A DNA stretch of 64,000 nt from an uncultured virus (IMG/VR IMGVR_UViG_3300029305_010146) (Duplodnaviria; Heunggongvirae; Uroviricota; Caudoviricetes): the IMG/VR virus record IMGVR_UViG_3300029305_010146; one strand, 5' to 3'. A program made the position numbers and the translations under genes. Shown one piece after another: positions 1 to 42,633 of this stretch (its first letter is position 1; each line of letters opens with the position of its first letter). Under the pieces are notes generated by a model. That model was given only the letters and a program-made list of their open reading frames with translations. It searched no databases and had not been told where the DNA came from.

Positions 1-757
1 TCATACCTCTTTTAATGGTTTTTGGTAATACAATAGTACCATCGTGATGTCCGTCGTGACAAGTTTTGCAAAGTGTAACTAAATTATTTGGTGCATCGCC
101 ACCAGTTTTTCTGCTTTCAATATGATGTACTTCTAAAACTGGGTCTTTGCTTTTGCCTTTGCAACATTGGCATTTATGCCCATCACGAAATAATACATAT
201 TCCCTGACATTCCAATGGTCGAGCATTTCGCCCCACTGGTATTCAATTCCTTTAATGTCAGGATTCTTAATTTTCTGAATATCAAAAGATGCTATCTCCA
301 CAATAATTTTACTAATCGGTAAAATTTTATGTAGGCCAGAAATTACTTTTAAGTGAGTTTGGATTTTATTCTCAACGGATGGTGCTAACCATCCTTTGCT
401 TTTACTATGCACACGATTATTAAATCGTGGTGCTCTATATCTGGTTTTGCGTTTTCTTCTACTTGTGCGAAGTTCTCTTTTGGTAGAAAGTAATTCCACA
501 ATATCATTTCGTAGTTCAACTTCACCAGAATAAACTTCTTCACTTTCAGTAGAAGCAGATAATCCAATTACTTTGCTACCAGCATCTACCCCAAGTACGA
601 TATCTTGAGTATAGGATGTTGTATCATAAAGCAATTGAATAGTAAACGGACATCTTTTTACTACTTTCGCTTGATTGGAACGAAGTAGATGTTTTACTTT
701 ACCGTGCCTATTTGTAGGCATAAGCGGTTGCCCGTTATTGCTGATTACATATACCAA
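1..757 (-). CDS. iscB: IscB RNA-guided endonuclease (IS200/IS605 OMEGA), 3' part runs off window
   Basis: Manual translation from TTG at 757 after AGGAG: MVYVISNNGQPLMPT (PLMP), RuvC-I LGVDAGSK, Arg-rich helix RTSRRKRKTRYR, HNH region CQCC...HHIESRKTGGDAPNNLVTLCKTCH. Missing from the ORF track because it is open at the window edge. Confidence 0.92.
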   Translation of the reverse strand, partial: MVYVISNNGQPLMPTNRHGKVKHLLRSNQAKVVKRCPFTIQLLYDTTSYTQDIVLGVDAGSKVIGLSASTESEEVYSGEVELRNDIVELLSTKRELRTSRRKRKTRYRAPRFNNRVHSKSKGWLAPSVENKIQTHLKVISGLHKILPISKIIVEIASFDIQKIKNPDIKGIEYQWGEMLDHWNVREYVLFRDGHKCQCCKGKSKDPVLEVHHIESRKTGGDAPNNLVTLCKTCHDGHHDGTIVLPKTIKRGM

Positions 758-789
758 TATAGGCACTCCTTTCAATGTAATAAATACAT

Positions 790-1052
790 AATTCCGCATT
801 ACTACGGTTAGTTGACCATCGTCAATGTTATATACGGTTTGTTATTAGCAACACTGTGCCTACCCATCAGCACTGTTTAATCACTAACCGCAGAGTACGG
901 AACTTGGTCAAACATCCCGTAGTGCCTATATATTCGTATATAACGTAGTCTCTAAATAAATAGAGACAGAGACTATTCAACAAGGGATTATAGATAACTA
1001 CAATCCCCCACTTTAAATTTTAGTTACAAAATTAAGTGGTGGGTTGTTGAAT
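790..1052 (-). ncRNA. omega-RNA (HEARO-like) scaffold of the IscB element
   Basis: Minus strand starts TTCAACAACCCACCACTTAA...TTTAAAGTGGGGGATTG...AATCCCTTGTTGAATAG...GACTACGTT...CTCTGCGG...TTAAACAG...AACATTGACGATG directly upstream of iscB; boundaries approximate. Confidence 0.75.
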
Positions 1053-8032: not shown

Positions 8033-8599
8033 ATGACAGATGTTGAATTGGGAAAGTTTATTTCCTATATTTTAAGACACCATCCAGAAGATGTTGGAAT
8101 TAAATTGGATAAGAATGGATATGCCAATGTTTCTGATTTAATCACTAATATTAATGCAACAAAAAAATATCATAACGAACTATCTGAAGAACGATTGCAA
8201 CGAATAGTAGATACGAATGATAAAAAACGCTATTCTTACGATGAAACAGGAACAAAAATTCGTGCCGTTCAAGGTCATAGCTTTCATGTTGATGTCGCAA
8301 AAAAATCAATTCCTCCAATCACCTTATATCATGGAACTTCAAAAAGTGCTTATGATATTATTAGGAAAAAGGGTATCAACAAAATGAATAGAGATTTCGT
8401 ACATCTCTCTTCTAATAAAGATACGGCAATTGCTGTTGGAATGCGACATGCAAAGAGAAAAGAAAACCTCGTTATTTTAGAAATTGATGTAAAGAAAATG
8501 TTTTCAGACGGATACGATTTTTATGTCGCAGAAAACGGCGTATGGTTGACCGACTTTGTTCCAGCAAAATACATTGACACAATCCACACTATTCGCTAA
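8033..8599 (+). CDS. kptA: RNA 2'-phosphotransferase Tpt1/KptA
   Basis: SYILRHHP, DKKRY, IRAVQGHS, LYHGT, VHLS, NGVWLT motifs. Confidence 0.93.
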   Translation: MTDVELGKFISYILRHHPEDVGIKLDKNGYANVSDLITNINATKKYHNELSEERLQRIVDTNDKKRYSYDETGTKIRAVQGHSFHVDVAKKSIPPITLYHGTSKSAYDIIRKKGINKMNRDFVHLSSNKDTAIAVGMRHAKRKENLVILEIDVKKMFSDGYDFYVAENGVWLTDFVPAKYIDTIHTIR

Positions 8600-15372: not shown

Positions 15373-16635
15373 ATGGAGAATAACAAAAACAATATCAATG
15401 CAGAGGAAACGAAGGTTGAAGAAACCGTTGTTTCTCCCGAAAAAAAGAAAATTCCTTGGAAAGAAAAAACAAAGAAACAAAAATTTGATTCGGTTTGTAA
15501 TATTATTGGACCAATTCTTATGATTGTAGCATTTGTCTTGTGTTTTAGAACTGGTGTTCTTTACAAGGAAATGATGCATTATCAAAAAGAAGCAACGGAT
15601 TACGAATATGTTATGATGCTTCTTGAAAGTCAGTACACTGACGATTATGATAAAAATGTCGCAATGAATAATGCAATTAACGGTTATTTAAGTTCTATTG
15701 GAGATAAATATGCGTATTATCTTTCCCCAGAACAGCATGAAAAGCACGAAATGTCAAGCAATGGAGAAAAGATTGCATTAGGTATCACATTTGATGTCAA
15801 GGACGACCAGTTATATGTTTCCAATTTAGAAAAGGAAAGCGCTGCCGAAAACTCTGGCATCAAAATTGGCGACAGACTTATTTCTATTAAAGAAAAAAAT
15901 GTCGAAACTTATGCAGAGTATATTGCTTTCTTCATTAACAATTCTTTTAACGAAAACGAAGAAGTTAAAGTTGTAGTAGAAAGAGATAATGAAAATTTAG
16001 AATTCATTATTAAACCCAAAAAGACAATTGTAAAACTATCAAAGTCCGAAGTAATTGATAACATCCTCTACATTGAATTAAGTACATTTAGTGAAAAATC
16101 TTTCACAGAAATTGATGAAGTTATTAAATCCATCGAAACCAAATATGATGGCATTATCCTTGATTTGCGAGACAATGGTGGTGGTGCATTAGATTCGTTA
16201 GAGAAAATCGCTGGTATGTTTATGAAAGATAAACTTATTGCAGAATTCAGATACAAGAACGAAACCGAGAAATGTTATACAAAGGGCGGAAATGCATTTA
16301 CTGATTTACCCCTTGTTGTATTGGTAAACGGGAACAGTGCAAGTGCATCTGAATGCCTTACTGGTGCATTAAAGTGTCACGAAAGAGCAACAATTGTCGG
16401 AACTCAAACATTTGGCAAGGGAATTGGTCAATCTACATATCAATGTCCAAATGGAGGATATGTTACTTTTACCACTTCTAAATATTATTTACCAAATGGC
16501 GAATGTATCCACGAAGTAGGCATTACACCAGATATTATAGTTGAGTTACCAAAGGAAGTTGTCGATGGCGATGCAGAATTAACAAAAGATAATGATACCC
16601 AGTTACAAAAAGCAATTGAATTATTAAAAAAATAA
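15373..16635 (+). CDS. S41 carboxyl-terminal processing protease with PDZ domain
   Basis: TM anchor, DLRDNGGG, SASASE, TFGKG, GITPD. Confidence 0.9.
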   Translation: MENNKNNINAEETKVEETVVSPEKKKIPWKEKTKKQKFDSVCNIIGPILMIVAFVLCFRTGVLYKEMMHYQKEATDYEYVMMLLESQYTDDYDKNVAMNNAINGYLSSIGDKYAYYLSPEQHEKHEMSSNGEKIALGITFDVKDDQLYVSNLEKESAAENSGIKIGDRLISIKEKNVETYAEYIAFFINNSFNENEEVKVVVERDNENLEFIIKPKKTIVKLSKSEVIDNILYIELSTFSEKSFTEIDEVIKSIETKYDGIILDLRDNGGGALDSLEKIAGMFMKDKLIAEFRYKNETEKCYTKGGNAFTDLPLVVLVNGNSASASECLTGALKCHERATIVGTQTFGKGIGQSTYQCPNGGYVTFTTSKYYLPNGECIHEVGITPDIIVELPKEVVDGDAELTKDNDTQLQKAIELLKK

Positions 16636-16658
16636 TTTAAAACTTTTTAAAAAAACAC

Positions 16659-16687
16659 TTGACAAATGAAAATCAATGTGTTATAAT
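16659..16687 (+). promoter_or_regulatory. Sigma-A promoter of tRNA operon 1
   Basis: TTGACA-17-TATAAT with extended TG. Confidence 0.85.
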
Positions 16688-16728
16688 GAGTGTACAATAA
16701 AGAAATCAAGAGAAAGGGGTTCGCAATT

Positions 16729-16830
16729 ATGATGAATCTTCACAATTATGATTATAGACATCTTAATAACGATAACGAACGTAGTGCCGATTCATATTTG
16801 CGAGTCACTGCTTGTTTTTCTGCGGCCTAA
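16729..16830 (+). CDS. Leader peptide 1 (Asn/Asp-rich, 33 aa)
   Basis: AAGGGG RBS; MMNLHNYDYRHLNNDNERSADSYLRVTACFSAA. Confidence 0.75.
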   Translation: MMNLHNYDYRHLNNDNERSADSYLRVTACFSAA

Positions 16831-16856
16831 AGGCCAAAGAACTGATGCAAGATTAT

Positions 16857-16898
16857 TCCCAGTGACTGTGGCACATGCAGTTACTGGGATTTTTTATT
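16857..16898 (+). terminator. Attenuator terminator 1
   Basis: TCCCAGTGACTG/CAGTTACTGGGA stem plus T tract just before tRNA-Asp; 5' arm complementary to AGTCACTG at 16803-16810. Confidence 0.8.
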
Positions 16899-16905
16899 GA
16901 ATTAT

Positions 16906-16982
16906 GGCTCGGTAGTTCAGATGGTCAGAGCGCCAGCCTGTCACGCTGGAGGTCGTGGGTTCGAACCCCATCCGAGTCGCCA
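16906..16982 (+). tRNA. tRNA-Asp(GTC)
   Basis: Cloverleaf, CCAGC-CTGTCAC-GCTGG, CCA. Confidence 0.95.
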
Positions 16983-17115
16983 CAAATCCAAACTTAAAAA
17001 AGTCAGAACAAAGGGGATAGGAATAACCCTTCCAGAGACCTCGTGCCTGCACAGGACTTGTTTAGTGGTGTTTGGTCAATACATGTTAGTACTTTGCCAC
17101 TTTCCTATTTAATAC

Positions 17116-17192
17116 GGCTCGGTAGTTCAGATGGTTAGAGCACTGGTCTGTCACATCAGAGGTCACGGGTTCGAACCCCGTTCGAGTCGCCA
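17116..17192 (+). tRNA. tRNA-Asp(GTC)
   Basis: Cloverleaf, CTGGT-CTGTCAC-ATCAG, CCA. Confidence 0.94.
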
Positions 17193-17197
17193 TATAT

Positions 17198-17273
17198 GGG
17201 GCCATAGCTCAGTTGGGAGAGCACCAGCCTTGCAAGTTGGGGGTCGTGGGTTCAAGCCCCACTGGTTCCACCA
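17198..17273 (+). tRNA. tRNA-Ala(TGC)
   Basis: Cloverleaf with G3:U70, CCA. Confidence 0.95.
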
Positions 17274-17296
17274 CCCATTTTTATGGGATTATATAT

Positions 17297-17449
17297 TCCT
17301 CGTTAGCTCAGTAGGTAGAGCAAGCGGCTGTGGTAAATTAGCATAAGTAATGCATATTTATCTGGACGGATAAATAGGATATGAGTTCAAATCTTGTATT
17401 TACCTCCATAACCGCTGGGTCGCAGGTTCGAGTCCTGCACGGGGAGCCA
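17297..17449 (+). tRNA. tRNA-Asn(GTT) interrupted by a 77-nt insert (17332-17408) in the anticodon
   Basis: Joining 17297-17331 to 17409-17449 gives a canonical 76-nt tRNA with AGCGG-CTGTTAA-CCGCT, G discriminator and CCA. Confidence 0.85.
17332..17408 (+). ncRNA. tRNA-like cloverleaf nested inside tRNA-Asn
   Basis: GGTAAAT/ATTTACC acceptor, GCAT/ATGC D stem, 8-bp anticodon-position stem, TTCAAAT T loop, TCCA end. Confidence 0.8.
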
Positions 17450-17464
17450 TGAGATTTGGCCAAA

Positions 17465-17707
17465 AACATCTTTAATAAAAGTTAAAATATTTGCAAAAGC
17501 ACAAAAATATTGCATAATAAAATTATAATAGATAAACTTACAACCAATTAGGTAAGTTTTGCCAAGGGTAAGTTAAATAATATCTATTCCAAAATGTATC
17601 CCATTAGGGTAGAGGTAATGTGTCTTGCCTTAATGGTGGGTTATCCCATCATTAGAAGCACCCACTTCAGAAAAATCGTTAGAATTTTTAAGTGGTGTGT
17701 AGTTCAC
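17465..17707 (+). mobile_element. Possible non-autonomous IS200/IS605-type remnant
   Basis: 3' end GAAGCACCCACTT...AAGTGGTGTGTAGTTCAC resembles TnpB-element right ends; no ORF; left boundary uncertain. Confidence 0.4.
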
Positions 17708-17759
17708 AGGCCAAATTCTCAACCTATTAAATATAACTCCATAATAATGGAGTTTATAT

Positions 17760-17838
17760 CTCCCGATAACTCAGTCTGGTAGAGTGCTTAAATATTTTAT
17801 TTAAGAGGTCGTGGGTTCAAATCCCATAAAGGAGACCA
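17760..17838 (+). pseudogene. Degenerate tRNA gene, anticodon unassignable
   Basis: Good D arm, T arm and CCA, but three acceptor mismatches and an aberrant CTTAAAT-ATTTT-ATTTAAG arm. Confidence 0.65.
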
Positions 17839-18141
17839 AGTCCAAACGCCTCTGCCCAAGGTTGCAAGCGGACCACTTGGACTGCTTGAAAAAAAGTTAA
17901 AATCCTGCTTTTGTAGGACCGACTCTTTGGGATTGATTACCCCAAAAAGGGTTGCTCCAGTTTTGGTTGAACCGCATTTCCAACTCAACAGTCCTAATCA
18001 AACTTTTGTTTTGGAATACTTAATTTACAATATTGTAGCGGGAATATCGATTACATCAAAAAATTCTTTGTTATTTGGATTACAAAATTTTTTATTTTTT
18101 CATTAAATCGATTTCAATATTCGCAATATCGTATTTTATAT

Positions 18142-18226
18142 GCAAGATTGGTGGAATTGGCAGACACGCTGGTTTTAGGCACCAGTACCGTAAGGTTTGT
18201 GGGTTCAAGTCCCACATCTTGTACCA
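18142..18226 (+). tRNA. tRNA-Leu(TAG)
   Basis: Type II cloverleaf, CTGGT-TTTAGGC-ACCAG, CCA. Confidence 0.93.
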
Positions 18227-18348
18227 TGTGCTTCGGCACACCGACAACATAGTTGTCAGTCCAGTGTACACAAAGGACACCATCCAACAGACTTAATGAT
18301 GGAGAGGAGAAACCTCGTGAAACTTTTAGTCAGTTATACACTTCCGAC

Positions 18349-18415
18349 GGCACCGACACATTGATAGGTGAGGTTTTTCGGGAAAGTTTAACCGAGTTCG
18401 AGTCTCGGCGGTGCA
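18349..18415 (+). ncRNA. Short tRNA-like RNA without CCA
   Basis: GCACCG/CGGTGC stem stacked on CCGAG-TTCGAGT-CTCGG T arm; no canonical anticodon loop. Confidence 0.5.
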
Positions 18416-18458
18416 TTAGGGTAAAGAGTGTATGACAAAACTGCCCCCACAAAAATAT

Positions 18459-18536
18459 GTCCCGTTAGCTCAGTTGGAATAGAGCACCGCTCTTCTAAAG
18501 CGGGTGTCATTGGTTCGAGTCCAATACGGGATGCCA
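18459..18536 (+). tRNA. tRNA-Arg(TCT)
   Basis: CCGCT-CTTCTAA-AGCGG, CCA. Confidence 0.94.
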
Positions 18537-18572
18537 TGAAGAAAATATTTTTTCAAATTATAAAAAAAGTAG

Positions 18573-18601
18573 TTGACAAACCTCAAATTATGTGATATAA
18601 T
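18573..18601 (+). promoter_or_regulatory. Sigma-A promoter of tRNA operon 2
   Basis: TTGACA-17-TATAAT with extended TG. Confidence 0.85.
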
Positions 18602-18622
18602 CACAATGTAAATAAGACCTAT

Positions 18623-18709
18623 GCAGAATTGGTGGAATAGGCAGACACGCCGTCTTGAGGGGGCGGTGCCAGTAATGGCGTATGAGTTCAAGTCTCATAT
18701 TCTGCACCA
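18623..18709 (+). tRNA. tRNA-Leu(GAG)
   Basis: Type II cloverleaf, CCGTC-TTGAGGG-GGCGG, CCA; lies upstream of leader 2. Confidence 0.93.
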
Positions 18710-18758
18710 TAAACAAATTATTAAACTATCAAATTTTTTAGAAAAGGAGTAAATCAAA

Positions 18759-18872
18759 ATGAAGTTCAATATCACTTTTGTACATGAATATGAATATCGC
18801 TATGAACACAGGATTTCAAACATTGAGTCTGTGTCTATTCGTCGTGCAAAAAATGGCGATATTGACCACTAA
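18759..18872 (+). CDS. Leader peptide 2 (His/Glu/Tyr run, 37 aa)
   Basis: AAGGAG RBS; MKFNITFVHEYEYRYEHRISNIESVSIRRAKNGDIDH. Confidence 0.8.
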   Translation: MKFNITFVHEYEYRYEHRISNIESVSIRRAKNGDIDH

Positions 18873-18900
18873 AAAGGTTTACTTCAAAAAGTAGAAGTTC

Positions 18901-18945
18901 AATGCCTGATGACTCAATGTTAGAGTTGTCAGGCATTTTTATTTT
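18901..18945 (+). terminator. Attenuator terminator 2
   Basis: AATGCCTGATGACTC/GAGTTGTCAGGCATT stem plus T tract; 18911-18921 is the exact complement of 18819-18829. Confidence 0.85.
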
Positions 18946-18953
18946 ATCAATAT

Positions 18954-19065
18954 AGGGGAGTATGCAAGTGGCCAAAGCAAGGAGCGGTGAACTCCTGTTG
19001 TTTTAGACTTGGGTGCACATGTGGTCTTTACAACTTCGTTGGTTCAAATCCAACCTCCCCTACCA
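18954..19065 (+). tRNA. Atypical Tyr-body tRNA with GTG at anticodon position and about 40-nt variable arm
   Basis: AGGGGAG/CTCCCCT acceptor, loop CGGTGAA (G33), A discriminator, CCA. Confidence 0.6.
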
Positions 19066-19071
19066 ACATAT

Positions 19072-19159
19072 GGGGCAGTATGCATAGCGGCGATTGCAGC
19101 GGGCTGTAAACCCGTGACATTAAGAAACACCGTTGGTTCGAGTCCAACCTGCCTCACCA
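19072..19159 (+). tRNA. tRNA-Tyr(GTA)
   Basis: GCGGG-CTGTAAA-CCCGT, long variable arm, CCA. Confidence 0.9.
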
Positions 19160-19166
19160 TCAGCAT

Positions 19167-19242
19167 GGTGCTATCGACAAGTGGTTTAAGTCGTCGCCCT
19201 TTCAAGGCGGAGTCACGGGTTCGAATCCCGTTAGCATCACCA
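19167..19242 (+). tRNA. tRNA-Glu(TTC)
   Basis: TCGCC-CTTTCAA-GGCGG, CCA. Confidence 0.93.
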
Positions 19243-19246
19243 ATAT

Positions 19247-19330
19247 GGGAGAGTAGCAAATCGGCAACTGCGGCGGTCTGTAAAACCGTTCCTTATAGGG
19301 TAGTGGGGTCGGCACCCACCTCTCCCACCA
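19247..19330 (+). tRNA. tRNA-Tyr(GTA) with variant T loop GTCGGCA
   Basis: GCGGT-CTGTAAA-ACCGT, CCA. Confidence 0.85.
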
Positions 19331-19334
19331 ATAT

Positions 19335-19409
19335 GGCACTTTGGTCAAGCGGTTAAGACACTGCCCTTTCACGGCAGTAACACGGGTTCGAATCCCGTAA
19401 GTGTCACCA
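19335..19409 (+). tRNA. tRNA-Glu(TTC)
   Basis: CTGCC-CTTTCAC-GGCAG, CCA. Confidence 0.94.
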
Positions 19410-19487
19410 GGTAGACGTAGTTCAGTTGGTTAGAACGCCAGATTGTGGCTCTGGAGGTCGTGGGTTCGAATCCCATCGTCTACCCCA
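19410..19487 (+). tRNA. tRNA-His(GTG)
   Basis: G-1:C73, CCAGA-TTGTGGC-TCTGG, CCA. Confidence 0.94.
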
Positions 19488-19490
19488 TAT

Positions 19491-19566
19491 GGCACTTTCG
19501 TCTAAAGGTCAGGACACGGGACTTTCACTCCCGAAATGTTGGGTTCGAGACCCACAAGTGTCACCA
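19491..19566 (+). tRNA. tRNA-Glu(TTC)
   Basis: CGGGA-CTTTCAC-TCCCG, CCA; slightly irregular T stem. Confidence 0.88.
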
Positions 19567-19571
19567 TATAT

Positions 19572-19647
19572 GGTGTAGATGATGTAAAGGTTAGCATAAG
19601 GTGTTGTGACCACCTTTGCATGAGTTCAAGTCTCATTCTTCACCCCA
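19572..19647 (+). tRNA. tRNA-His(GTG)
   Basis: G-1:C73, AGGTG-TTGTGAC-CACCT, CCA; one acceptor mismatch. Confidence 0.85.
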
Positions 19648-19653
19648 TCATAT

Positions 19654-19738
19654 AGGCAGATATGCAAGCGGTCAAAGCGGGCGCACTGTAAATGCGTTAC
19701 TTTTTGTTTCGTGAGTTCGAATCTCACTCTGCCTACCA
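19654..19738 (+). tRNA. tRNA-Tyr(GTA)
   Basis: GCGCA-CTGTAAA-TGCGT, CCA. Confidence 0.9.
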
Positions 19739-19743
19739 AATAT

Positions 19744-19818
19744 GGCGCTATGGTCAAGTGGTTAAGACACCGCCCTTTCACGGCGGTATCACGGGTTCGA
19801 ATCCCGTTAGCGTCACCA
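19744..19818 (+). tRNA. tRNA-Glu(TTC)
   Basis: CCGCC-CTTTCAC-GGCGG, CCA. Confidence 0.94.
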
Positions 19819-19959
19819 TAACAAGTTCGCTTGTGATTTAAAAAGTGTATCCCATAACTTTTCAACTGGAGAAACGAAGCAAATGGGAATATGTCTTTGT
19901 TTCTGGTTTTAGTCGGCAGCGATTGGTTCCTTAACCAAAAACTGATTACTGCCATGCAT

Positions 19960-20036
19960 GGTGCTTTCGTCTAACTGGTCAAGGATGTAAGACTCTCAAT
20001 CTTACGATACGGGTTCAAGTCCCGTAAGCATCACCA
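19960..20036 (+). tRNA. tRNA-Glu(CTC)
   Basis: TAAGA-CTCTCAA-TCTTA, CCA. Confidence 0.9.
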
Positions 20037-20037
20037 A

Positions 20038-20150
20038 GTTGTCGTAGCGGCAATTATGATTTCATCGTATAACGGTTAATACAACAAACTTGAAATTTGT
20101 CCATATAGGTTCGAATCCTATTTATAATCATAATATTTATTCACGACAAC
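20038..20150 (+). ncRNA. tRNA-like RNA (TGA loop) with extended closing stem, no CCA
   Basis: D arm GTAT/ATAC, ACAAA-CTTGAAA-TTTGT, ATAGG-TTCGAAT-CCTAT, closed by ATTATGATT/AATCATAAT and GTTGTCGT/ACGACAAC. Confidence 0.6.
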
Positions 20151-20158
20151 TTTTATAT

Positions 20159-20235
20159 GTGCCAATAGCTCAATGGACGAGAGTGGACGGCTACGAACCG
20201 TCAGGTTGCAGGTTCGAGTCCTGCTTGGCATGCCA
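20159..20235 (+). tRNA. tRNA-Arg(ACG)
   Basis: GACGG-CTACGAA-CCGTC, CCA. Confidence 0.93.
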
Positions 20236-20333
20236 AAACAATGGAGACCAAAAATTAGTCTCCATTTTTTCATTGACAATAAAAGAAAAATCATCTATGC
20301 TATGTTTAACATAAATGAAAGGAATGATTTCTT

Positions 20334-21545
20334 ATGAAATTTAATTGCAAATCTCGCAAAGGTTTCACACTTATCGAACTTCTCGTGGTTATAGGCATCC
20401 TTGCTGTGTTGGCAGCAATTGCTATTCCAAGTGTTGCTGGACTTATTGATAGAGCGAATGTTTCTGCTGACAATACTAATGCCAATGAATATACAAACGC
20501 AATTGAAAGATTTACATCGGAGTATGAACTCTATTGCCAAGATGTAGCATCTGGCAAAATAAAGGATGCGGATAATGATGGTAAACCCGACAATATGGAT
20601 GCAGCACAAGGTCGAGTTTTTAATGTTACTAAAGTAGTTACTCGTGCAGATATTACCGCACTCGAAAGTACTGGACTTGGTGATGCAATGATTAGTAGAG
20701 ATACAAAATATCCTCTTAATGGCATTACTCTCAAATCCATTATTGAGAACTATACAAAAACTAGTTCTGTCACATTCGAACCCAAACAAAGCGATAAAGT
20801 TTATTGGTATTCTCCAGATTGTGGTTTAGTAGTCGTTGCTAATCCTAATTCATCTAAAGATGCTCTTAATAATCTTGTAATTTCGGGTAAAGATGCAAAA
20901 GGCAATACATTAGGTTCTGGAACCAATTGGGTTGATGTTACGAACTACAGTCTTATCAAGATTATATGTGGTAATGGTGCTGACGGTTTGCATTACCACA
21001 ATGACGAATTGTTCACAGGTATTTGCGATAGTGATGGCGAATGGTATGACAATGGCGTACAAGGACCAATTTGCTTCTTATCGGGCACAAAAATCACCAT
21101 GGCAAATGGAACACAAAAAAATATTGAAGATATTATTGTAGGCGATAAGGTAGTATCTTATAATGTAGAAACTAAAATTTTCTATATTACAACTGTCTGT
21201 AACACCTTTGTTAGAGAAACAGAAGTTTATTACACAATAAGATTCGATGATGGAACAGAACTCAATTTAACTGGATGCCATCCGCTATTAACACCAAAAG
21301 GATTCGAAAACATTACTGGTGTCCATGAAAGATTAAATATGGTTGATGCACTTGATGTTGGTGATGAAGTTATTTCTGTCAATGATACCAAAAAAATAGT
21401 TTCTATTGAAAAAATAATAGAAAAAACAACTGTATATAATTTCAATGTTATAGACGACGAAGAAATTATCATTGGTAAAGATAATGATTCTAATGACACA
21501 TATATTGCAAACGGAATTGTATCACACAATGCAGATTATTCTTGA
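20334..21545 (+). CDS. Type IV pilin-like protein with C-terminal Hint (BIL-type) domain
   Basis: KG|FTLIELLVV prepilin motif; Hint CFLSGTKITMANG...TGCHPLLT...VYNFNV...IVSHN at 21072-21530. Confidence 0.88.
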   Translation: MKFNCKSRKGFTLIELLVVIGILAVLAAIAIPSVAGLIDRANVSADNTNANEYTNAIERFTSEYELYCQDVASGKIKDADNDGKPDNMDAAQGRVFNVTKVVTRADITALESTGLGDAMISRDTKYPLNGITLKSIIENYTKTSSVTFEPKQSDKVYWYSPDCGLVVVANPNSSKDALNNLVISGKDAKGNTLGSGTNWVDVTNYSLIKIICGNGADGLHYHNDELFTGICDSDGEWYDNGVQGPICFLSGTKITMANGTQKNIEDIIVGDKVVSYNVETKIFYITTVCNTFVRETEVYYTIRFDDGTELNLTGCHPLLTPKGFENITGVHERLNMVDALDVGDEVISVNDTKKIVSIEKIIEKTTVYNFNVIDDEEIIIGKDNDSNDTYIANGIVSHNADYS

Positions 21546-23158: not shown

Positions 23159-24145
23159 ATGAAATTTAATTACAAATCTCGCAAAGGTTTCACTCTTATT
23201 GAACTTCTTGTAGTCATTGGTATTTTAGCAGTTCTCGCTGCTATTGCTATTCCATCAGTTGCTGGTCTCATTGACAGAGCAAACGTTTCTGCTGACAATA
23301 CCAATGCGAGCGAGATGACGAATGCTATGGAGAGATTTGTATCTGAATATGAATTATTCAGACAAGATATTGCATCGGGCACATTTGATAAAGACAATAT
23401 GGATGCCACACAAAGCAGAGTGTACAATGTTACAAAAGCAGAAACTCGTACCGACATTGAGAAACTCGAAAGTAAAGAAGGTCTAAATGGTATTCGCATC
23501 GATATCGATAACAAATATGCACAAAACCACGAAACTGCAAAAGCAGTAATGCGGAATTATATGAAGACCAGTTCTTCCACTTTCGAACCAAAACAGAGCG
23601 ATATGACTTATTGGTATAATACAGTCACTGGTTATACTGTTGTTGCAGAAAAAGATACAGATACTTCAACCCTATATACTAAACTACCAACACAAGTAGA
23701 ATATGTGAACAACACTCCTGCATCAATTAATGAATGGATTGACTTATCTTCTACTGTTGTCATCCCAGATATTGCTTTAATTCATGTGCATAAATGGCCA
23801 ACTCTGGATGCAGAAGGCAAACATCAAATATGCATGCATTATTCTGGTGAAATTCCAGACGATTCGATTGGTGAATTATTCTTAATTTGGGATTTAGGCG
23901 AATATGAACAAGGTGAACTACCAACACTAAACTATACGAATTCTTATAGAGAACCATGGAAGATGACTGGCAGCAATCCGCCGTGCAATGGAGAATATAA
24001 TGTGAGGTTGCATGGATACAAACCAGAACAATTAGATAAAGTAGAATACTTTAGATGGTGTTACAAATACAACGAAAATGGTCAAACAAAGTTTGTGTAC
24101 TCACCAATTTATGCTTTTGCATTCAATGATTTACCAAACGAATAA
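23159..24145 (+). CDS. Type IV pilin-like protein
   Basis: Same KG|FTLIELLVVIGILAVLAAIAIPSV N-terminus; unrelated C-terminal domain. Confidence 0.88.
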   Translation: MKFNYKSRKGFTLIELLVVIGILAVLAAIAIPSVAGLIDRANVSADNTNASEMTNAMERFVSEYELFRQDIASGTFDKDNMDATQSRVYNVTKAETRTDIEKLESKEGLNGIRIDIDNKYAQNHETAKAVMRNYMKTSSSTFEPKQSDMTYWYNTVTGYTVVAEKDTDTSTLYTKLPTQVEYVNNTPASINEWIDLSSTVVIPDIALIHVHKWPTLDAEGKHQICMHYSGEIPDDSIGELFLIWDLGEYEQGELPTLNYTNSYREPWKMTGSNPPCNGEYNVRLHGYKPEQLDKVEYFRWCYKYNENGQTKFVYSPIYAFAFNDLPNE

Positions 24146-25353: not shown

Positions 25354-26838
25354 ATGAAATTTAATGCAAAATCTCGTAAAGGTTTCACCTTGATTGAACT
25401 CCTCGTGGTTATTGGCATTCTTGCCGTTCTCGCTGCAATCGCTATCCCTTCCGTTGCTGGTTTAATCGACAGAGCAAACCAGTCTTCCGATAACACAAAT
25501 GCAAAAGAGATGACAAATGCCATCGAGCGCTTCACTTCTGAATACGAACTATACTGTCAAGATGTAGCATCTGGCACATTAAATGTAACAGACCTCGATT
25601 CTGCACAAGGAAGGGTATTCAACGTAACGGAGATTGAAACTCGAAAAGGTGTAGAGATGACCGAAAACCTCGGTTATACACACGACATAGTAGCAGTTGA
25701 CAGAGATACAAAATATCCAGTTAACGAAGTTACTGCAAAAAAGGTTATCGAAAACTTTATGAAGACCAGTTCTTCCACCTTTGAACCAAAGCAGAGTGAC
25801 TGCAGTTATTACTATTCTCCACAGGTTGGTAAAGTAGTTGTTGCTAAAACTGGTAGTACCATTGCAGAATTAAATAAAATTGCTATGGAAGATGAAGCAG
25901 AGTATGCAACAATTAACAATGGCGAAATCATTGAATGGATTAACCTTTCCGTTAATGCAGGAAAAGAAGTAAATGACTGGACCTATGTTAATGCAGCAAC
26001 CCCAACGAACAATCAATATAAAGAATTAGGTACAAAAGCACCTACTTTTAATATTGAGTGGAGTGCAAAGAATGAAGCAACTGGTCAACCAGTTACGGTT
26101 GGTGTTTCTATTTCTAATTCAAATTATTCTGGTAATGGCACAACTCCTTGTACGATGACGAATGTCCCAATGGGCAAATATGCATTGGTAGCAACTTATG
26201 CTGGTAATGAGTACAAATTCAACTTGCTTGTTTACCAAGAAGGAATTCAAACATTCAAGTTAACAATTCCAGGAACTAATATTTCTGTTGGTTCTGATAA
26301 CGATACATATGTACCAAGTGGCGGTTCTACACCAAGCACCCCAAGTACTCCCGAACCACCAATTCAAAGTTGTCAACATACAAATACCAAAGTAATCAAT
26401 GCAAAAGAGGCAACCACTGATGAAAAAGGTTATACTGGCGATACTTGGTGCAACGACTGTAACACTAAAATTGCAAGTGGTACAGAAATTAATTTCTTAC
26501 ATACAGTAACGATTGATTTTACAAATGGTTATTCTGTTAATCAAGTTTCGCGTAGTGATTTGGTTTATTTTTCAATGGATGGCGGTAATACATGGGTTGA
26601 CCTTGCAACACTTCTACCACAAGAAATATCCCCTTATCAAAGAACAACTATAACAATCGAGTGTTCTCAAATTAAAGCAGATATACGATATATGAATGGC
26701 CCAGGATATCAATTTTTGTCTAATGATTTAGGTGTTAACTTTGTGTGTTTGGCAATGAATACCGTAACAGATAATTTGATATTAACAGAAGATATTGTAA
26801 TTACAATTTCATTTGACCACTCTGGTGGTGCCAATTAA
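25354..26838 (+). CDS. Type IV pilin-like protein
   Basis: Prepilin motif; Pro-rich linker and CQH...GYTGDTWCNDC module shared with 61381; ends HSGGAN. Confidence 0.88.
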   Translation: MKFNAKSRKGFTLIELLVVIGILAVLAAIAIPSVAGLIDRANQSSDNTNAKEMTNAIERFTSEYELYCQDVASGTLNVTDLDSAQGRVFNVTEIETRKGVEMTENLGYTHDIVAVDRDTKYPVNEVTAKKVIENFMKTSSSTFEPKQSDCSYYYSPQVGKVVVAKTGSTIAELNKIAMEDEAEYATINNGEIIEWINLSVNAGKEVNDWTYVNAATPTNNQYKELGTKAPTFNIEWSAKNEATGQPVTVGVSISNSNYSGNGTTPCTMTNVPMGKYALVATYAGNEYKFNLLVYQEGIQTFKLTIPGTNISVGSDNDTYVPSGGSTPSTPSTPEPPIQSCQHTNTKVINAKEATTDEKGYTGDTWCNDCNTKIASGTEINFLHTVTIDFTNGYSVNQVSRSDLVYFSMDGGNTWVDLATLLPQEISPYQRTTITIECSQIKADIRYMNGPGYQFLSNDLGVNFVCLAMNTVTDNLILTEDIVITISFDHSGGAN

Positions 26839-30809: not shown

Positions 30810-31343
30810 TCACTTATTGAGGATGAGTTTTCCGTAAGATGTATCGTTTTCGTTTCTCTTGTAAATAATGGATGTGTATCCATCTTCATCAAGATAAGCG
30901 AAGAATGTATGTCCGAGCATTTCCATCTGCAAACCTGCTTCTTCATCAGTCATAGAACGAAGTTCTACCACTTTATTTCTCGCAAGGTCAAACTTTCCTT
31001 CTGTCTCATCAACATCTTCATCAAAATTCTCTACCATCGCATTATAATTCGCAAAATCATATCTGTCATGGAGTTTGGTTTTTAGTTTTCTCAACTTTCT
31101 CTTGAGGTCATCTACCGCAAAATCTACTGCAGGCAAAACCTCATCTGCAATTGCCTCGCCTCTTACGAAGGTACCGATGTGTCTCACCGTAATATCACAC
31201 TTAAATTGTTCATGCTTAAATGTGATGGTAACATCAAACTCTGCATTTTGAGGCAACATTTTTGTTACTCGTTTAAGTTCAGAATTTACCTTTTCCTTAA
31301 TTTCTTCTCGAAGTTTAAAACCTCTTGCGGTTATGTTCAACAT
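30810..31343 (-). CDS. hpf: Ribosome hibernation promoting factor (long HPF)
   Basis: NITARG, AVDFAVDDLKRKLRKLKTK, MTDEEAGLQMEMLGHTFF...IYKR...YG. Confidence 0.9.
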   Translation of the reverse strand: MLNITARGFKLREEIKEKVNSELKRVTKMLPQNAEFDVTITFKHEQFKCDITVRHIGTFVRGEAIADEVLPAVDFAVDDLKRKLRKLKTKLHDRYDFANYNAMVENFDEDVDETEGKFDLARNKVVELRSMTDEEAGLQMEMLGHTFFAYLDEDGYTSIIYKRNENDTSYGKLILNK

Positions 31344-40493: not shown

Positions 40494-40522
40494 TTGACAA
40501 AACAAATCCAATGTGCTATAAT
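40494..40522 (+). promoter_or_regulatory. Sigma-A promoter of tRNA operon 3
   Basis: TTGACA-17-TATAAT; shares AATGTG.TATAATGAGT with promoter 1. Confidence 0.85.
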
Positions 40523-40577
40523 GAGTACAACGAAAGTCGAAAACGACTAAAAATCTTACGAAAGGTAGTGCACAGTT

Positions 40578-40661
40578 ATGAAAAACTTCACCACATCAAC
40601 AAGTCCATACGGTACATCGTCCAGTGCTACAACAATTCATAATGTGTCACTGTCTTTTTGA
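40578..40661 (+). CDS. Leader peptide 3 (Thr/Ser-rich, 27 aa)
   Basis: AAAGGT RBS; MKNFTTSTSPYGTSSSATTIHNVSLSF. Confidence 0.8.
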   Translation: MKNFTTSTSPYGTSSSATTIHNVSLSF

Positions 40662-40693
40662 CATGCATTAAATGCATATGTGCAGATTAGATT

Positions 40694-40732
40694 GCCAGTG
40701 ACCACACTATGTGATTACTGGTTTATTTTTTT
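40694..40732 (+). terminator. Attenuator terminator 3
   Basis: GCCAGTGACCACA/TGTGATTACTGGT stem plus T tract abutting tRNA-Thr; 5' arm pairs with TGTGTCACTG in the leader. Confidence 0.8.
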
Positions 40733-42247: not shown

Positions 42248-42319
42248 ACCACACAAGATAAGAACCTTCACGTTGGTGTGTGGTGTTAAACCCGTCCTCG
42301 AACGGTAACTAATCTTATC
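42248..42319 (+). ncRNA. HDV-like (theta-type) ribozyme
   Basis: P1 ACCACAC/GTGTGGT, P2 GATAAGA/TCTTATC, P3 ACC/GGT, P4 CCGT/ACGG, J4/2 CTAA. Confidence 0.8.
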
Positions 42320-42332
42320 AAACTCCCAGCAT

Positions 42333-42548: not shown

Positions 42549-42620
42549 AGTGTACAAGATAAGAACCTTCACGTCGGTGTACACTGTTAAATCCGTCTTT
42601 GAACGGTAACTAATCTTATC
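42549..42620 (+). ncRNA. HDV-like (theta-type) ribozyme, second copy
   Basis: Same fold; P1 AGTGTAC/GTACACT shows compensatory changes relative to copy 1. Confidence 0.8.
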
Positions 42621-42633
42621 AACAACCGAACAT

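What the first reader, a model, noticed from the sequence alone, without database searches (positions are those of the whole stretch)
16729..18536. Attenuator 1: Asn/Asp leader dominated by NAY (queuosine-family) codons
Eleven of codons 3-16 are NAY (Asn, Asp, His, Tyr); the others are CTT, AGA and CTT. The array holds Asp x2, Ala, the interrupted Asn, Leu(TAG) and Arg(TCT). AGTCACTG (16803-16810) complements terminator CAGTGACT. Operons 1 and 2 together cover all four GUN-anticodon tRNAs, which are the substrate class of colicin E5-type tRNases (established). A counter-defence role is inference.
Basis: partly seen in the sequence, partly recalled or inferred. Interest (0 to 1): 0.78.

Follow-up and report, generated by a model that had tools for sequence, protein, structure and literature searches.

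The report
Leader-peptide attenuator gating phage tRNAs
A tiny translated "test" gene and a switchable transcription stop sit between a strong promoter and a block of tRNA genes in a probable large gut phage, so the phage probably makes these tRNAs only when ribosomes read the matching codons slowly.

Summary
A consensus promoter (16659-16687) is followed by a Shine-Dalgarno site and a 33-codon ORF (16729-16830). Then come a 14-bp terminator with a T-run (16857-16895) and the tRNA array (16906-18536). Eleven of codons 3-16 are NAY (scanning P 4.5e-5).

AGTCACTG (16803-16810) is the core of an antiterminator. It pairs with the terminator's 5' arm better than 996 of 1000 shuffles. A ribosome-mask model gives a sharp switch: the antiterminator is allowed with the A site at codons 1-21 and abolished at codons 22-32.

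Two more tRNA operons in the window have the same layout, with leaders rich in His/Glu/Tyr and in Thr/Ser/Gly that match their own arrays. Three distinct homologous ORFs from other metagenomes keep the frame, length and core DYRHLNNDNE. Their substitutions are mostly to Ala and Arg, whose tRNAs lie in this array.

Best reading: trp-style leader-peptide attenuation applied to tRNA genes. The NAY bias is explained by cognate tRNAs, with Asn and Asp in this array and His and Tyr in the next. A queuosine or colicin E5 link has no direct support.

Eight literature searches found no published account. Earlier unchecked AI notes of this scan describe the same layout in at least 7 other genomes, 6 of them described as phages. 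Regulation itself is untested.

The parts
16659..16687 (+). Promoter P1: TTGACA, 17-nt spacer, TATAAT, with TG upstream of the -10 element (12 of 12 consensus positions). The predicted start of transcription is near 16694.
   Evidence: About 80% identical over 52-65 nt to the operon-3 promoter region.
16710..16719 (+). Shine-Dalgarno-like GAGAAAGGGG, 9 nt before the ATG. It overlaps region 1 (GGTTCGCAA, 16718-16726), which can pair with TTGCGAGTC (16798-16806).
   Evidence: Direct reading. The pairing appears in the minimum-free-energy folds.
16729..16830 (+). Leader ORF of 33 codons plus TAA: MMNLHNYDYRHLNNDNERSADSYLRVTACFSAA.
   Evidence: Homologous ORFs P0121, P0122 and P0123 from other metagenomes.
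16735..16776 (+). Regulatory codons 3-16: Asn x5, Asp x2, His x2, Tyr x2, Leu(CTT) x2 and Arg(AGA) x1.
   Evidence: The core DYRHLNNDNE is invariant in 4 of 4 sequences.
16783..16811 (+). 5' strand of the antiterminator (region 2), core AGTCACTG at 16803-16810. It pairs with 16859-16875.
   Evidence: Duplex energy -19.6 kcal/mol, reached by 4 of 1000 dinucleotide shuffles. It forms in the transcript cut before the terminator's 3' arm.
16811..16851 (+). Middle hairpin (-12.4 kcal/mol) that brings regions 2 and 3 together. The stop codon TAA lies in its apical loop (GGCC-TAAA-GGCC).
16857..16895 (+). Intrinsic terminator: 14-bp stem with a 5-nt loop (-21.1 kcal/mol), followed by TTTTTT.
   Evidence: Variant contigs in 2 of 4 laid runs carry one extra T in the run.
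16906..16982 (+). tRNA-Asp(GTC), copy 1.
17116..17192 (+). tRNA-Asp(GTC), copy 2.
17198..17273 (+). tRNA-Ala(TGC).
17297..17450 (+). tRNA-Asn(GTT), interrupted between U35 and U36 by a 77-nt insert (17332-17408).
   Evidence: ARAGORN calls tRNA-Asn once the insert is removed, and the whole gene folds as a cloverleaf with the insert protruding. Contigs of other DNA join 17331 to 17409.
17332..17408 (+). tRNA-like cloverleaf with an encoded CCA end, nested in the Asn anticodon loop. Its 'anticodon' arm is an 8-bp stem with a 6-nt loop, so it is unlikely to decode.
   Evidence: Rfam tRNA, 39.9 bits.
17760..17838 (+). Odd tRNA-like gene with three mismatched acceptor pairs and an oversized anticodon loop. 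ARAGORN does not call it.
   Evidence: Rfam tRNA, 35.3 bits.
18142..18226 (+). tRNA-Leu(TAG).
18459..18536 (+). tRNA-Arg(TCT), the last gene of array 1. No terminator-like site follows before promoter P2.
18573..18945 (+). Parallel case 2. It comprises promoter P2 (18573-18601), tRNA-Leu(GAG) (18623-18709), leader ORF 18759-18872 (MKFNITFVHEYEYRYEHR...), an 11-bp perfect antiterminator (AACATTGAGTC at 18819 against GACTCAATGTT at 18911) and a terminator (18901-18937). The Tyr/Glu/His array follows and runs to 20235.
40494..40732 (+). Parallel case 3. It comprises promoter P3 (40494-40522), leader ORF 40578-40661 (MKNFTTSTSPYGTSSSATTIHNVSLSF), an antiterminator (40637-40653 against 40695-40711) and a terminator (40693-40721 plus a T-run). 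The Thr x3, Gly and Ser x4 array follows and runs to 42726.

Best explanation
This is a leader-peptide (ribosome-mediated) transcription attenuator that controls a tRNA operon of a probable large phage of a Clostridia-like gut host.

Proposed sequence of events:
1. Host RNA polymerase starts at the consensus promoter P1.
2. A ribosome loads at the Shine-Dalgarno site and translates the 33-codon leader.
3. If the aminoacyl-tRNAs for the codons in positions 3-16 are scarce, the ribosome stalls there. These codons are Asn, Asp, Arg-AGA and Leu (tRNAs in this array) and His and Tyr (tRNAs in the adjoining array, reached by read-through).
4. Region 2 (16783-16811) then stays free. Held close by the middle hairpin, it pairs with the terminator's 5' arm as that arm emerges. 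The terminator cannot form and the array is transcribed.
5. If decoding is fast, the ribosome runs over region 2 and the middle hairpin (codons 22-34) while the polymerase makes the terminator. The 14-bp hairpin with its T-run forms and transcription stops before the first tRNA.

The net effect is negative feedback, an on-demand supply of exactly those tRNAs whose codons are read slowly.

Shown here by computation on the sequence: the parts, their order, the complementarities, the codon bias, the ORF's conservation and the position-dependent switch in a folding model.

Inferred: translation of the ORF, coupling with transcription, termination efficiency and the physiological signal.
For: 1. 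Parts in the canonical order. The promoter matches 12 of 12 positions with a TG extension, and the terminator has 14 pairs followed by TTTTTT. A Shine-Dalgarno site lies 9 nt before the ATG.

2. A promoter followed by a terminator before any gene is specific to the tRNA operons. Of 32 promoter-like sites in the window (at most 1 mismatch), 4 have a terminator-like site within 320 nt. Two are P1 and P3, and the other two lie inside or at the end of coding genes. P2's terminator lies about 337 nt downstream.

3. Antiterminator. The duplex energy is -19.6 kcal/mol, reached by 4 of 1000 shuffles. The parallel leaders score 12 of 1000 and 32 of 1000.

4. Switch. The transcript was cut before the terminator's 3' arm and 30 nt around the A site were masked. 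The core antiterminator pairs then have probability >=0.87 for A-site codons 1-21 and <=0.01 for codons 22-32. Operon 2 gives >=0.96 for codons 1-16 and <=0.16 for codons 17-29. Operon 3 gives >=0.74 for codons 1-19 and 0.00 for codons 20-28. In each case the regulatory codons end just before the switch point.

5. Codon matching, as the best 14-residue window against the amino acids of the leader's own array. Leader 1 scores 10 of 14 (P 0.01), or 14 of 14 against arrays 1 and 2 together (P 6.5e-4). Leader 2 scores 10 of 10 in a 10-residue window (P 1.6e-4). Leader 3 scores 11 of 14 (P 2.5e-5). No mismatched single-array pairing falls below P 0.12 at residue level.

6. Conservation. Three further distinct ORFs, P0121, P0122 and P0123, come from other assemblies. 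All keep the MM start, the DYRHLNNDNE core, RV.ACF and a length of 32-33 codons, with one in-frame one-codon indel. The spacer between core and antiterminator is free to vary. In the regulatory window 5 of 6 substituted residues are Ala, Arg or Asn, which are amino acids of array 1.

7. The leader folds far better than shuffles (z = -5.1; 0 of 200 shuffles fold as well).

8. No Rfam family covers the leader: no T-box, no known leader and no riboswitch.
Against: - At equilibrium on the full leader the terminator forms with probability 0.98 wherever the ribosome is placed. The switch therefore exists only if folding is kinetic and co-transcriptional, which is assumed, not shown.
- In the cut-transcript model for operon 1, the antiterminator also forms with no ribosome (0.96) and with the ribosome at the stop codon (0.77). 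The basal state of this particular leader is thus less clear than for operons 2 and 3.
- With strict wobble rules only 10 of 32 leader-1 codons are read by array-1 tRNAs (P 0.069). Its 2 His and 3 Tyr codons are served only by array 2, and CTT is served only if Leu(TAG) reads it or by Leu(GAG) of operon 2.
- The main cognate tRNA, Asn, is interrupted by a 77-nt insert, and whether it matures is unknown.
- No DNA of the relatives could be fetched, so there is no covariation test of the helices.
- The homologous ORFs come from a protein database, so relatives with a broken frame could not have been seen.
- The nearest bacterial S41 peptidase homologues are from Clostridia. From recall, in Bacillus subtilis transcription outruns translation and leader-peptide attenuation is rare in Firmicutes.
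- Regulation has not been observed.
Confidence: 0.64

Rival explanations
1. A sensor specific to the queuosine family or to colicin E5-type nucleases. On this reading the leader is built of NAY codons in order to report the state of the four GUN-anticodon tRNAs, meaning their Q modification or their cleavage by an E5-like anticodon nuclease. The arrays then act as a counter-defence.
For: NAY is the single best-fitting set for this leader, at 11 of 14 (P 4.5e-5). Operons 1 and 2 hold all four GUN tRNAs in 2-3 copies each, apart from the single interrupted Asn. tRNA-handling genes lie nearby: Tpt1, a CCA-adding enzyme and PTH2. A published hypothesis links phage tRNAs to colicin E5 and other tRNases (PMC10264068, passages read).
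Against: In the homologues the NAY count falls to 9 of 14 and 9 of 13, and the replacements are Ala and Arg. Leaders 2 and 3 follow the rule 'amino acids of the own array', with Glu, Arg, Thr, Ser and Gly, none of which is a Q-family amino acid. No tgt or que gene was found among 44 ORFs. The leader mixes NAT (7) and NAC (4) codons with no pattern. No nuclease or host is known.
Confidence: 0.08
2. The terminator is a fixed, leaky dosage valve or insulator. It may also end transcripts coming from the upstream nrdD-to-S41 peptidase genes. On this reading the short ORF is fortuitous or not translated.
For: There is no terminator between the S41 peptidase stop (16635) and P1. The terminator wins at equilibrium in every state modelled. 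There is no experimental evidence of translation.
Against: Operon 3 has the same layout but no same-strand gene upstream. Three of three tRNA-operon promoters are followed by an ORF whose composition matches the array behind it. The antiterminators are better than 97-99.6% of shuffles. The ORF, its length and its core are kept in relatives, with an in-frame indel.
Confidence: 0.1
3. An RNA-only switch. The same alternative helices would be set by a trans-acting factor, with no ribosome involved. Candidates are an uncharged tRNA (as in T-box leaders), a phage protein or a small RNA.
For: The leader is highly structured (z = -5.1). The host is probably a Firmicute-like organism, where T-box and protein-mediated attenuation dominate (recalled).
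Against: Rfam finds no T-box or other family, at gathering threshold or at E-value <= 1. The codon bias is in frame with an ATG preceded by a Shine-Dalgarno site in all three leaders. The relatives' substitutions in the regulatory window are mostly to the array's own amino acids, 5 of 6.
Confidence: 0.06
4. The device is the same, but it reports amino-acid starvation of the host, that is the charging of tRNAs and not their amount. The phage would use it to time or throttle tRNA synthesis according to host physiology.
For: A stalled ribosome cannot tell 'too little tRNA' from 'tRNA not charged'. Classical attenuators report charging (recalled).
Against: Making more tRNA does not relieve amino-acid starvation, so the output would not feed back on the signal. 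Each leader's match to the tRNAs of its own array suggests product feedback.
Confidence: 0.12

Closest known systems
Leader-peptide transcription attenuators of enterobacterial amino-acid operons (trpL, hisL, leuL, thrL, pheL; multivalent ilvGMEDA leader). Recalled, apart from pheL (PMC3082878, search listing and start of abstract only).
   Same: A promoter-proximal short ORF with a run of regulatory codons. Mutually exclusive 1:2, 2:3 and 3:4 helices. An intrinsic terminator before the first structural gene. Several amino acids listed in one leader, as in ilv and thr.
   Different: The regulated genes are tRNAs, not biosynthetic enzymes, so the product itself is the sensed molecule. The element is on a phage. 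No sequence similarity was found, with no Rfam leader family hit. The stop codon lies in the loop of a middle hairpin between regions 2 and 3.
pheST (pheM leader) attenuation of phenylalanyl-tRNA synthetase in E. coli (recalled).
   Same: Leader-peptide attenuation that controls a component of the decoding apparatus, not a biosynthetic pathway.
   Different: It controls a synthetase gene, uses a single amino acid and is chromosomal.
T-box riboswitches of Firmicutes (Rfam RF00230).
   Same: They sense the state of a specific tRNA and set a terminator/antiterminator choice upstream of translation-related genes.
   Different: They bind uncharged tRNA directly and have no ORF. No T-box match was found here.
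Phage tRNA arrays as compensation for codon usage or for host tRNA depletion and cleavage (PMC10264068, passages read; PMC12409363, search listing and start of abstract only).
   Same: A large phage-borne set of tRNAs that includes the Asp, Asn, His and Tyr types named as colicin E5 targets.
   Different: In PMC10264068, the only one of the two searched for these words, 'attenuat', 'leader' and 'terminator' each occur 0 times; PMC12409363 was not searched for them.
Lak megaphage tRNA introns, one of which may encode a tRNA (Devoto et al. 2019, PMC6784885, passages read).
   Same: A tRNA-shaped insert inside the anticodon region of a phage tRNA gene, as seen here in tRNA-Asn.
   Different: A different phage, host and tRNA (Thr there). 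It is also unexplained there.

Membership tests
Leader-peptide (ribosome-mediated) transcription attenuator | A short ORF with a ribosome-binding site lies between the promoter and the first structural gene. | tested here: met
   GAGAAAGGGG lies 9 nt before ATG ATG, and the 33-codon ORF lies 42 nt downstream of the -10 element.
Leader-peptide (ribosome-mediated) transcription attenuator | A cluster of codons cognate to the regulated product. | tested here: met
   10 of 14 residues belong to amino acids of the own array (P 0.01), and 14 of 14 when the adjoining array is included (P 6.5e-4). NAY accounts for 11 of 14 (P 4.5e-5). With strict wobble over the whole ORF the match is only 10 of 32 (P 0.069).
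Leader-peptide (ribosome-mediated) transcription attenuator | An intrinsic terminator lies upstream of the first structural gene. | tested here: met
   A 14-bp stem (-21.1 kcal/mol) is followed by TTTTTT, and the T-run ends 10 nt before tRNA-Asp.
Leader-peptide (ribosome-mediated) transcription attenuator | An antiterminator excludes the terminator, and its formation depends on ribosome position. | tested here: met
   Computational only. The duplex energy is -19.6 kcal/mol, reached by 4 of 1000 shuffles. The probability is >=0.87 for codons 1-21 and <=0.01 for codons 22-32, but 0.77 at the stop codon.
Leader-peptide (ribosome-mediated) transcription attenuator | An anti-antiterminator (1:2 pairing) gives termination when the leader is not translated. 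| tested here: inconclusive
   GGTTCGCAA (16718) pairs with TTGCGAGTC (16798) in the full-length minimum-free-energy fold. In the cut transcript without a ribosome, however, the antiterminator wins (0.96).
Leader-peptide (ribosome-mediated) transcription attenuator | Read-through rises in vivo when the cognate aminoacyl-tRNA is limiting. | not testable with these tools
   One RNA library holds near-identical contigs of two array spacers (17855-18115 and 18242-18445) and none of the upstream peptidase gene. This is a weak hint that the array is transcribed somewhere.
Rfam leader families (Trp, His, Leu, Thr leaders) and T-box | A match to the curated covariance model. | tested here: not met
   No such hit at gathering threshold over the window, nor at E <= 1 over 16600-20400.
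Counter-defence against colicin E5-type anticodon nucleases | Supplies the tRNAs that the nuclease cleaves (Tyr, His, Asn, Asp). | tested here: met
   All four are present in operons 1 and 2. This is necessary but far from sufficient.
Counter-defence against colicin E5-type anticodon nucleases | The host carries such a nuclease, and the phage tRNAs resist it or are induced by it. | not testable with these tools
   The host is unknown and no whole genome is held for this window.

The most novel reading that the evidence does not exclude
The three leaders would form a codon-resolved surveillance circuit for the host's decoding capacity, with each phage tRNA block switched on only when its own codons stall. 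Leader 1 lists all four GUN-anticodon amino acids (Asn, Asp, His, Tyr) and heads a transcript that can run on into the His/Tyr array. It would be the arm that detects attack by anticodon nucleases of the colicin E5 type, or loss of queuosine. The phage would then answer tRNA-cleaving immunity with induced replacement tRNAs, possibly helped by the neighbouring Tpt1, CCA-adding and PTH2 enzymes.
Probability: 0.15. Interest if true: 0.9.

Novelty: new variant of a known kind. Interest (0 to 1): 0.76.

Why it matters
Why phages carry tRNA genes has been debated for decades, with codon compensation set against replacement of tRNAs destroyed during infection or by host defence. A leader that reads out the decoding speed of exactly the codons served by the array behind it would show that the phage measures demand and supplies tRNAs by feedback.

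That makes the question directly testable with reporters, tRNA depletion or tRNases in laboratory strains. It would also extend trp-style attenuation, a textbook mechanism for amino-acid operons, to genes whose product is the sensed molecule itself. It would add a compact, programmable sensor of tRNA availability as well.

Eight full-text searches found no description of it. Earlier notes of this scan report the same layout in at least 7 other genomes, 6 of them described as phages, so it may be widespread. Those notes are unchecked AI notes and are not independent evidence.

Tried and rejected
- Relatives' DNA could not be obtained.
  - No whole genome is held for the window.
  - IMG/VR scans found no relative of the S41 peptidase, whether queried as a single protein or as an alignment of 12 sequences. 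They found none of the promoter motif either: the 2 hits were unrelated and had no tRNA array. They found none of the leader alignment.
  - The P-type ATPase gave 14 loci at 42% identity. The 4 whole records searched hold only 3-4 tRNA matches each, so they are too distant to help.
  - GTDB genomes gave no leader relative and 16 bacterial peptidases at <=38% identity.
  - INPHARED gave only tRNA-sized DNA matches, peptidase matches at <=32% identity and CCA-enzyme matches at <=46% identity.
  - Two of those records, MT835498.1 and CP069348.1, hold no tRNA at all.
- Variant contigs. Runs X8, X9 and X10 cover the leader. Of the 40 listed differences, none lies in 16594-17256, but 207 more are not shown. 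No claim of conservation is made from this.
- Named phages checked for the same layout: Enterococcus phage H1 and Stenotrophomonas phage Mendera. No convincing case was found. In Mendera a 27-codon frame containing Cys, Lys and Trp, followed by an annotated terminator, precedes tRNA-Trp and tRNA-Cys. That is too weak to count.
- Leaders 2 and 3 are too short (37 and 27 residues) for the homology search, which needs at least 40, so only leader 1 has homologues.
- Equilibrium folding of the full leader shows no switch.
- The array spacers 17839-18141 and 18227-18458 fold no better than shuffles (z = -1.6 each).
- This scan's notes hold nothing for this genome or this sequence.
Full report
**What is there**

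The stretch 16640-18536 reads, in order:
- a consensus sigma-70-type promoter, TTGACA-17-TATAAT with a TG extension (16659-16687; 12 of 12 positions);
- a Shine-Dalgarno-like GAGAAAGGGG;
- a 33-codon ORF (16729-16830: MMNLHNYDYRHLNNDNERSADSYLRVTACFSAA);
- a hairpin holding the stop codon in its loop (16811-16851, -12.4 kcal/mol);
- a 14-bp hairpin followed by TTTTTT (16857-16895, -21.1 kcal/mol);
- the first tRNA, 10 nt after the T-run ends.

The leader as a whole folds much better than shuffles (z = -5.1; 0 of 200 fold as well).

ARAGORN finds 5 tRNAs in the array: Asp, Asp, Ala, Leu(TAG) and Arg(TCT). Rfam adds two tRNA-like hits. Removing 17332-17408 restores a canonical tRNA-Asn(GTT).

No Rfam family covers the leader, whether T-box, amino-acid leader or riboswitch. 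This holds at gathering threshold and at E <= 1.

Every stated fact checks out.
- Eleven of codons 3-16 are NAY, and the rest are CTT, AGA and CTT.
- AGTCACTG is at 16803-16810 and CAGTGACT at 16860-16867.
- The array content is as listed. Operons 1 and 2 together hold Asp, Asn, His and Tyr tRNAs.
- NAY codons make up 19.1% of 12,459 codons of 30 long ORFs in the window. Eleven of 14 has P 2.5e-6 for one window and 4.5e-5 when all windows of such a peptide are scanned.

**It is one of three**

The window holds two more tRNA operons built the same way.
- Operon 2 comprises promoter 18573-18601, tRNA-Leu(GAG), leader 18759-18872 (MKFNITFVHEYEYRYEHR...) and terminator 18901-18937. Its array holds Tyr x3, Glu x5, His x2, Ser and Arg(ACG).
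- Operon 3 comprises promoter 40494-40522, leader 40578-40661 (MKNFTTSTSPYGTSSSATTIHNVSLSF) and terminator 40693-40721. Its array holds Thr x3, Gly and Ser x4.

Residue-level match of each leader to the amino acids of its own array:

| Leader | Best window | Scanning P |
|---|---|---|
| 2 | 10 of 10 | 1.6e-4 |
| 3 | 11 of 14 | 2.5e-5 |
| 1 | 10 of 14 | 0.01 |
| 1, against arrays 1 and 2 together | 14 of 14 | 6.5e-4 |

No mismatched single-array pairing falls below P 0.12 at residue level.

At codon level with strict wobble, the whole-ORF matches to the own array are 10 of 32 (P 0.069), 14 of 36 (P 0.0065) and 13 of 26 (P 3.4e-5). Leader 1 against array 2 gives 11 of 32 (P 0.039).

No terminator-like site lies between the last tRNA of array 1 (18536) and promoter P2. 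Transcripts from P1 can therefore run into operon 2. That would explain why leader 1 also lists His and Tyr.

As a control, I looked at the 32 promoter-like sites in the window with at most one mismatch. Only 4 have a terminator-like site within 320 nt. Two are P1 and P3, and two lie inside or at the end of coding genes. P2's terminator lies about 337 nt downstream.

**Alternative structures**

On the full leader at equilibrium the terminator always forms (probability 0.98-0.99), wherever a 30-nt ribosome mask is placed. Any switch must therefore be kinetic, as in classical attenuators.

On the transcript cut just before the terminator's 3' arm, the 5' arm pairs upstream.
- In operon 1, 16783-16811 pairs with 16859-16875 (-19.6 kcal/mol; 4 of 1000 dinucleotide shuffles reach this).
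- In operon 2 there is an 11-bp perfect duplex plus extension (-19.1 kcal/mol; 12 of 1000).
- In operon 3 the energy is -15.3 kcal/mol (32 of 1000).

Probability of the core antiterminator pairs, by A-site codon:

| Operon | Antiterminator allowed | Antiterminator lost | Other states |
|---|---|---|---|
| 1 | >=0.87 at codons 1-21 | <=0.01 at codons 22-32 | 0.77 at the stop codon; 0.96 with no ribosome |
| 2 | >=0.96 at codons 1-16 | <=0.16 at codons 17-29; 0.00 at the stop | 0.01 with no ribosome; brief rise at codons 30-31 |
| 3 | >=0.74 at codons 1-19 | 0.00 at codons 20-28, stop included | 0.82 with no ribosome |

In each leader the block of matched codons (3-16, 9-18 and 5-19) ends just before, or for leader 2 at, the switch point. 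This placement is what a stalling sensor requires.

Operon 1 is the least clean case, because of its values at the stop codon and with no ribosome. I infer that the middle hairpin acts as a clamp holding regions 2 and 3 together. A ribosome that reaches codons 22-34 melts it and sits between the two regions while the polymerase makes the terminator. A 1:2 pairing (GGTTCGCAA at 16718 with TTGCGAGTC at 16798) appears in the full-length fold. It could give termination without translation, but this is not settled.

**Relatives**

No DNA of close relatives could be fetched (see Tried and rejected).

The protein databases hold three further distinct ORFs homologous to the leader:
- P0121, 45 aa, called from an upstream ATG, seen on 3 contigs;
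- P0122 and P0123, 32 aa each, called from the same MM start.

In the alignment, 17 of the 33 positions of this window's leader are invariant: MM, DYRHLNNDNE, RV, ACF. The length is 32-33 codons with one in-frame codon indel. The stretch between the core and the antiterminator strand varies freely (RSADSYL, CGTNRNM, RSGPRIM).

Composition of the regulatory window in each sequence:

| Sequence | Residues | Arrays 1+2 | Own array | NAY |
|---|---|---|---|---|
| This window | NLHNYDYRHLNNDN | 14 of 14 | 10 of 14 | 11 of 14 |
| P0121 | YLAANDYRHLNNDN | 14 of 14 | 11 of 14 | 9 of 14 |
| P0122, P0123 | NRAYDYRHLNNDN | 13 of 13 | 10 of 13 | 9 of 13 |

Of the 6 substituted residues, 5 are Ala, Arg or Asn, which are array-1 amino acids.

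This pattern fits selection on which tRNAs are queried, and fits less well selection on NAY as such. It has two caveats. The relatives' arrays are unknown, and only intact ORFs can appear in a protein database.

**Context**

The window looks like part of a large phage or other mobile element of an animal-gut Clostridia-like host.
- It carries an HNH endonuclease with a HEARO RNA, ThyX, NrdD and NrdG, dUTPase, two DNA methyltransferases and pilin-like proteins with Hint domains.
- It also carries a set of translation-related genes: RNA 2'-phosphotransferase Tpt1 (8033-8599), a CCA-adding enzyme (50606-52192, minus strand), peptidyl-tRNA hydrolase PTH2 (53485-53835) and a ribosome hibernation factor (30810-31343, minus strand).
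- The S41 peptidase just upstream has a small clade of close homologues (90-44% identity). Below that come Clostridia and Oscillospiraceae proteins at about 36%.
- Runs that hold the stretch are animal feces and gut metagenomes, many of them bovine.

**Expression hint**

One metatranscriptome (X24) has contigs with one mismatch each over two array spacers, 17855-18115 and 18242-18445. It has none over the peptidase gene or the leader. These are contigs, not reads, at depth 5-6, so this is a weak hint that the array is transcribed in nature.

**Comparison with what is known**

The device works like the leader-peptide attenuators of amino-acid operons and of pheST (recalled). It meets the anatomical criteria, and I file it as that kind of mechanism. 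It differs in the class of gene controlled (tRNAs) and in its carrier (a phage), and it shares no sequence family with the known leaders.

Eight full-text searches with different wordings found no report of leader-peptide attenuation of tRNA genes. The eLife paper proposing that phage tRNAs counter tRNases, colicin E5 among them, does not contain 'attenuat', 'leader' or 'terminator' (PMC10264068, passages read). Subscription journals are not covered by the search tool.

This scan's own earlier notes describe the same layout in at least 7 other genomes, 6 of them described as phages. They are unchecked AI notes. I did not test them, and I count them as leads only.

**Verdict**

The attenuator reading is supported with confidence about 0.64. 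The queuosine and colicin E5 reading is not supported beyond the co-occurrence of the four tRNA types. It is a new variant of a known kind of mechanism, and it has not been tested experimentally.

Noticed in passing
window 17297-17450 (insert 17332-17408): tRNA-Asn(GTT) is split exactly between U35 and U36 by a 77-nt tRNA-shaped insert with its own encoded CCA end. The insert's 'anticodon' arm is an 8-bp stem with a 6-nt loop. Variant contigs in three runs keep it, while other DNA in two runs joins 17331 to 17409. An RNA 2'-phosphotransferase (Tpt1, a tRNA-splicing enzyme in eukaryotes) is encoded at 8033-8599. Lak megaphages have a tRNA intron that may encode a tRNA (PMC6784885). Whether this insert is spliced is unknown.
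   Followed up: partly
window 17760-17838: An odd tRNA-like gene (Rfam 35.3 bits) with three mismatched acceptor pairs. Its anticodon arm reads either as a 5-bp stem with a 9-nt loop or as a 6-bp stem with the loop TATTTTA. Variants carry changes that restore a canonical D-arm start (A17769G) and turn a G-T pair of the T-stem into G-C (T17827C).
   Followed up: partly
window 18954-19068: A further tRNA-shaped sequence lies right after terminator 2. It has a 7-bp acceptor stem, a T arm, an arm with the loop CGGTGAA and a variable region of about 42 nt. Neither ARAGORN nor Rfam calls it.
   Followed up: no
window 17451-17759: This 309-nt spacer is highly structured (z = -7.8; 0 of 100 shuffles fold as well) and is closed by an 11-bp helix (GAGATTTGGCC / GGCCAAATTCTC). 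Run X8 has no depth over part of it (17472-17605). In run X9, 17519-17708 matches three different long contigs, so it may be a repeated or mobile element.
   Followed up: partly
window 17855-18115 and 18242-18445: Two array spacers appear as near-identical contigs (one mismatch each) in a metatranscriptome, while the neighbouring protein gene has no cover. They may be stable processed RNAs. Their folds are no better than shuffles (z = -1.6).
   Followed up: partly
window 18623-18872: In operon 2 a tRNA-Leu(GAG) sits between the promoter and the leader ORF. The leader mRNA would therefore be released by tRNA processing. This tRNA reads the CTT codons that leader 1 uses.
   Followed up: no
window 42253-42321 and 42554-42622: A 69-nt direct repeat (88% identity) lies between the Ser tRNAs of operon 3.
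   Followed up: no
window 807-1051 (minus strand) and 2-799 (minus strand): A HEARO RNA (130 bits) lies next to an HNH endonuclease ORF, which is an IscB/OMEGA-type pair.
   Followed up: no
window 20334-21545, 23159-24145, 25354-26838, 61381-63321: Four paralogous proteins have a type IV pilin-like N-terminal methylation motif. Two of them carry C-terminal Hint/intein-like domains.
   Followed up: no
L127 (Stenotrophomonas phage Mendera, MN098328.1) about 4830-4970: A 27-codon frame (MNNMYSQNQFCKWSVEDAGHRSVFESC) and an annotated terminator precede tRNA-Trp and tRNA-Cys. It is too weak to call an attenuator.
   Followed up: partly
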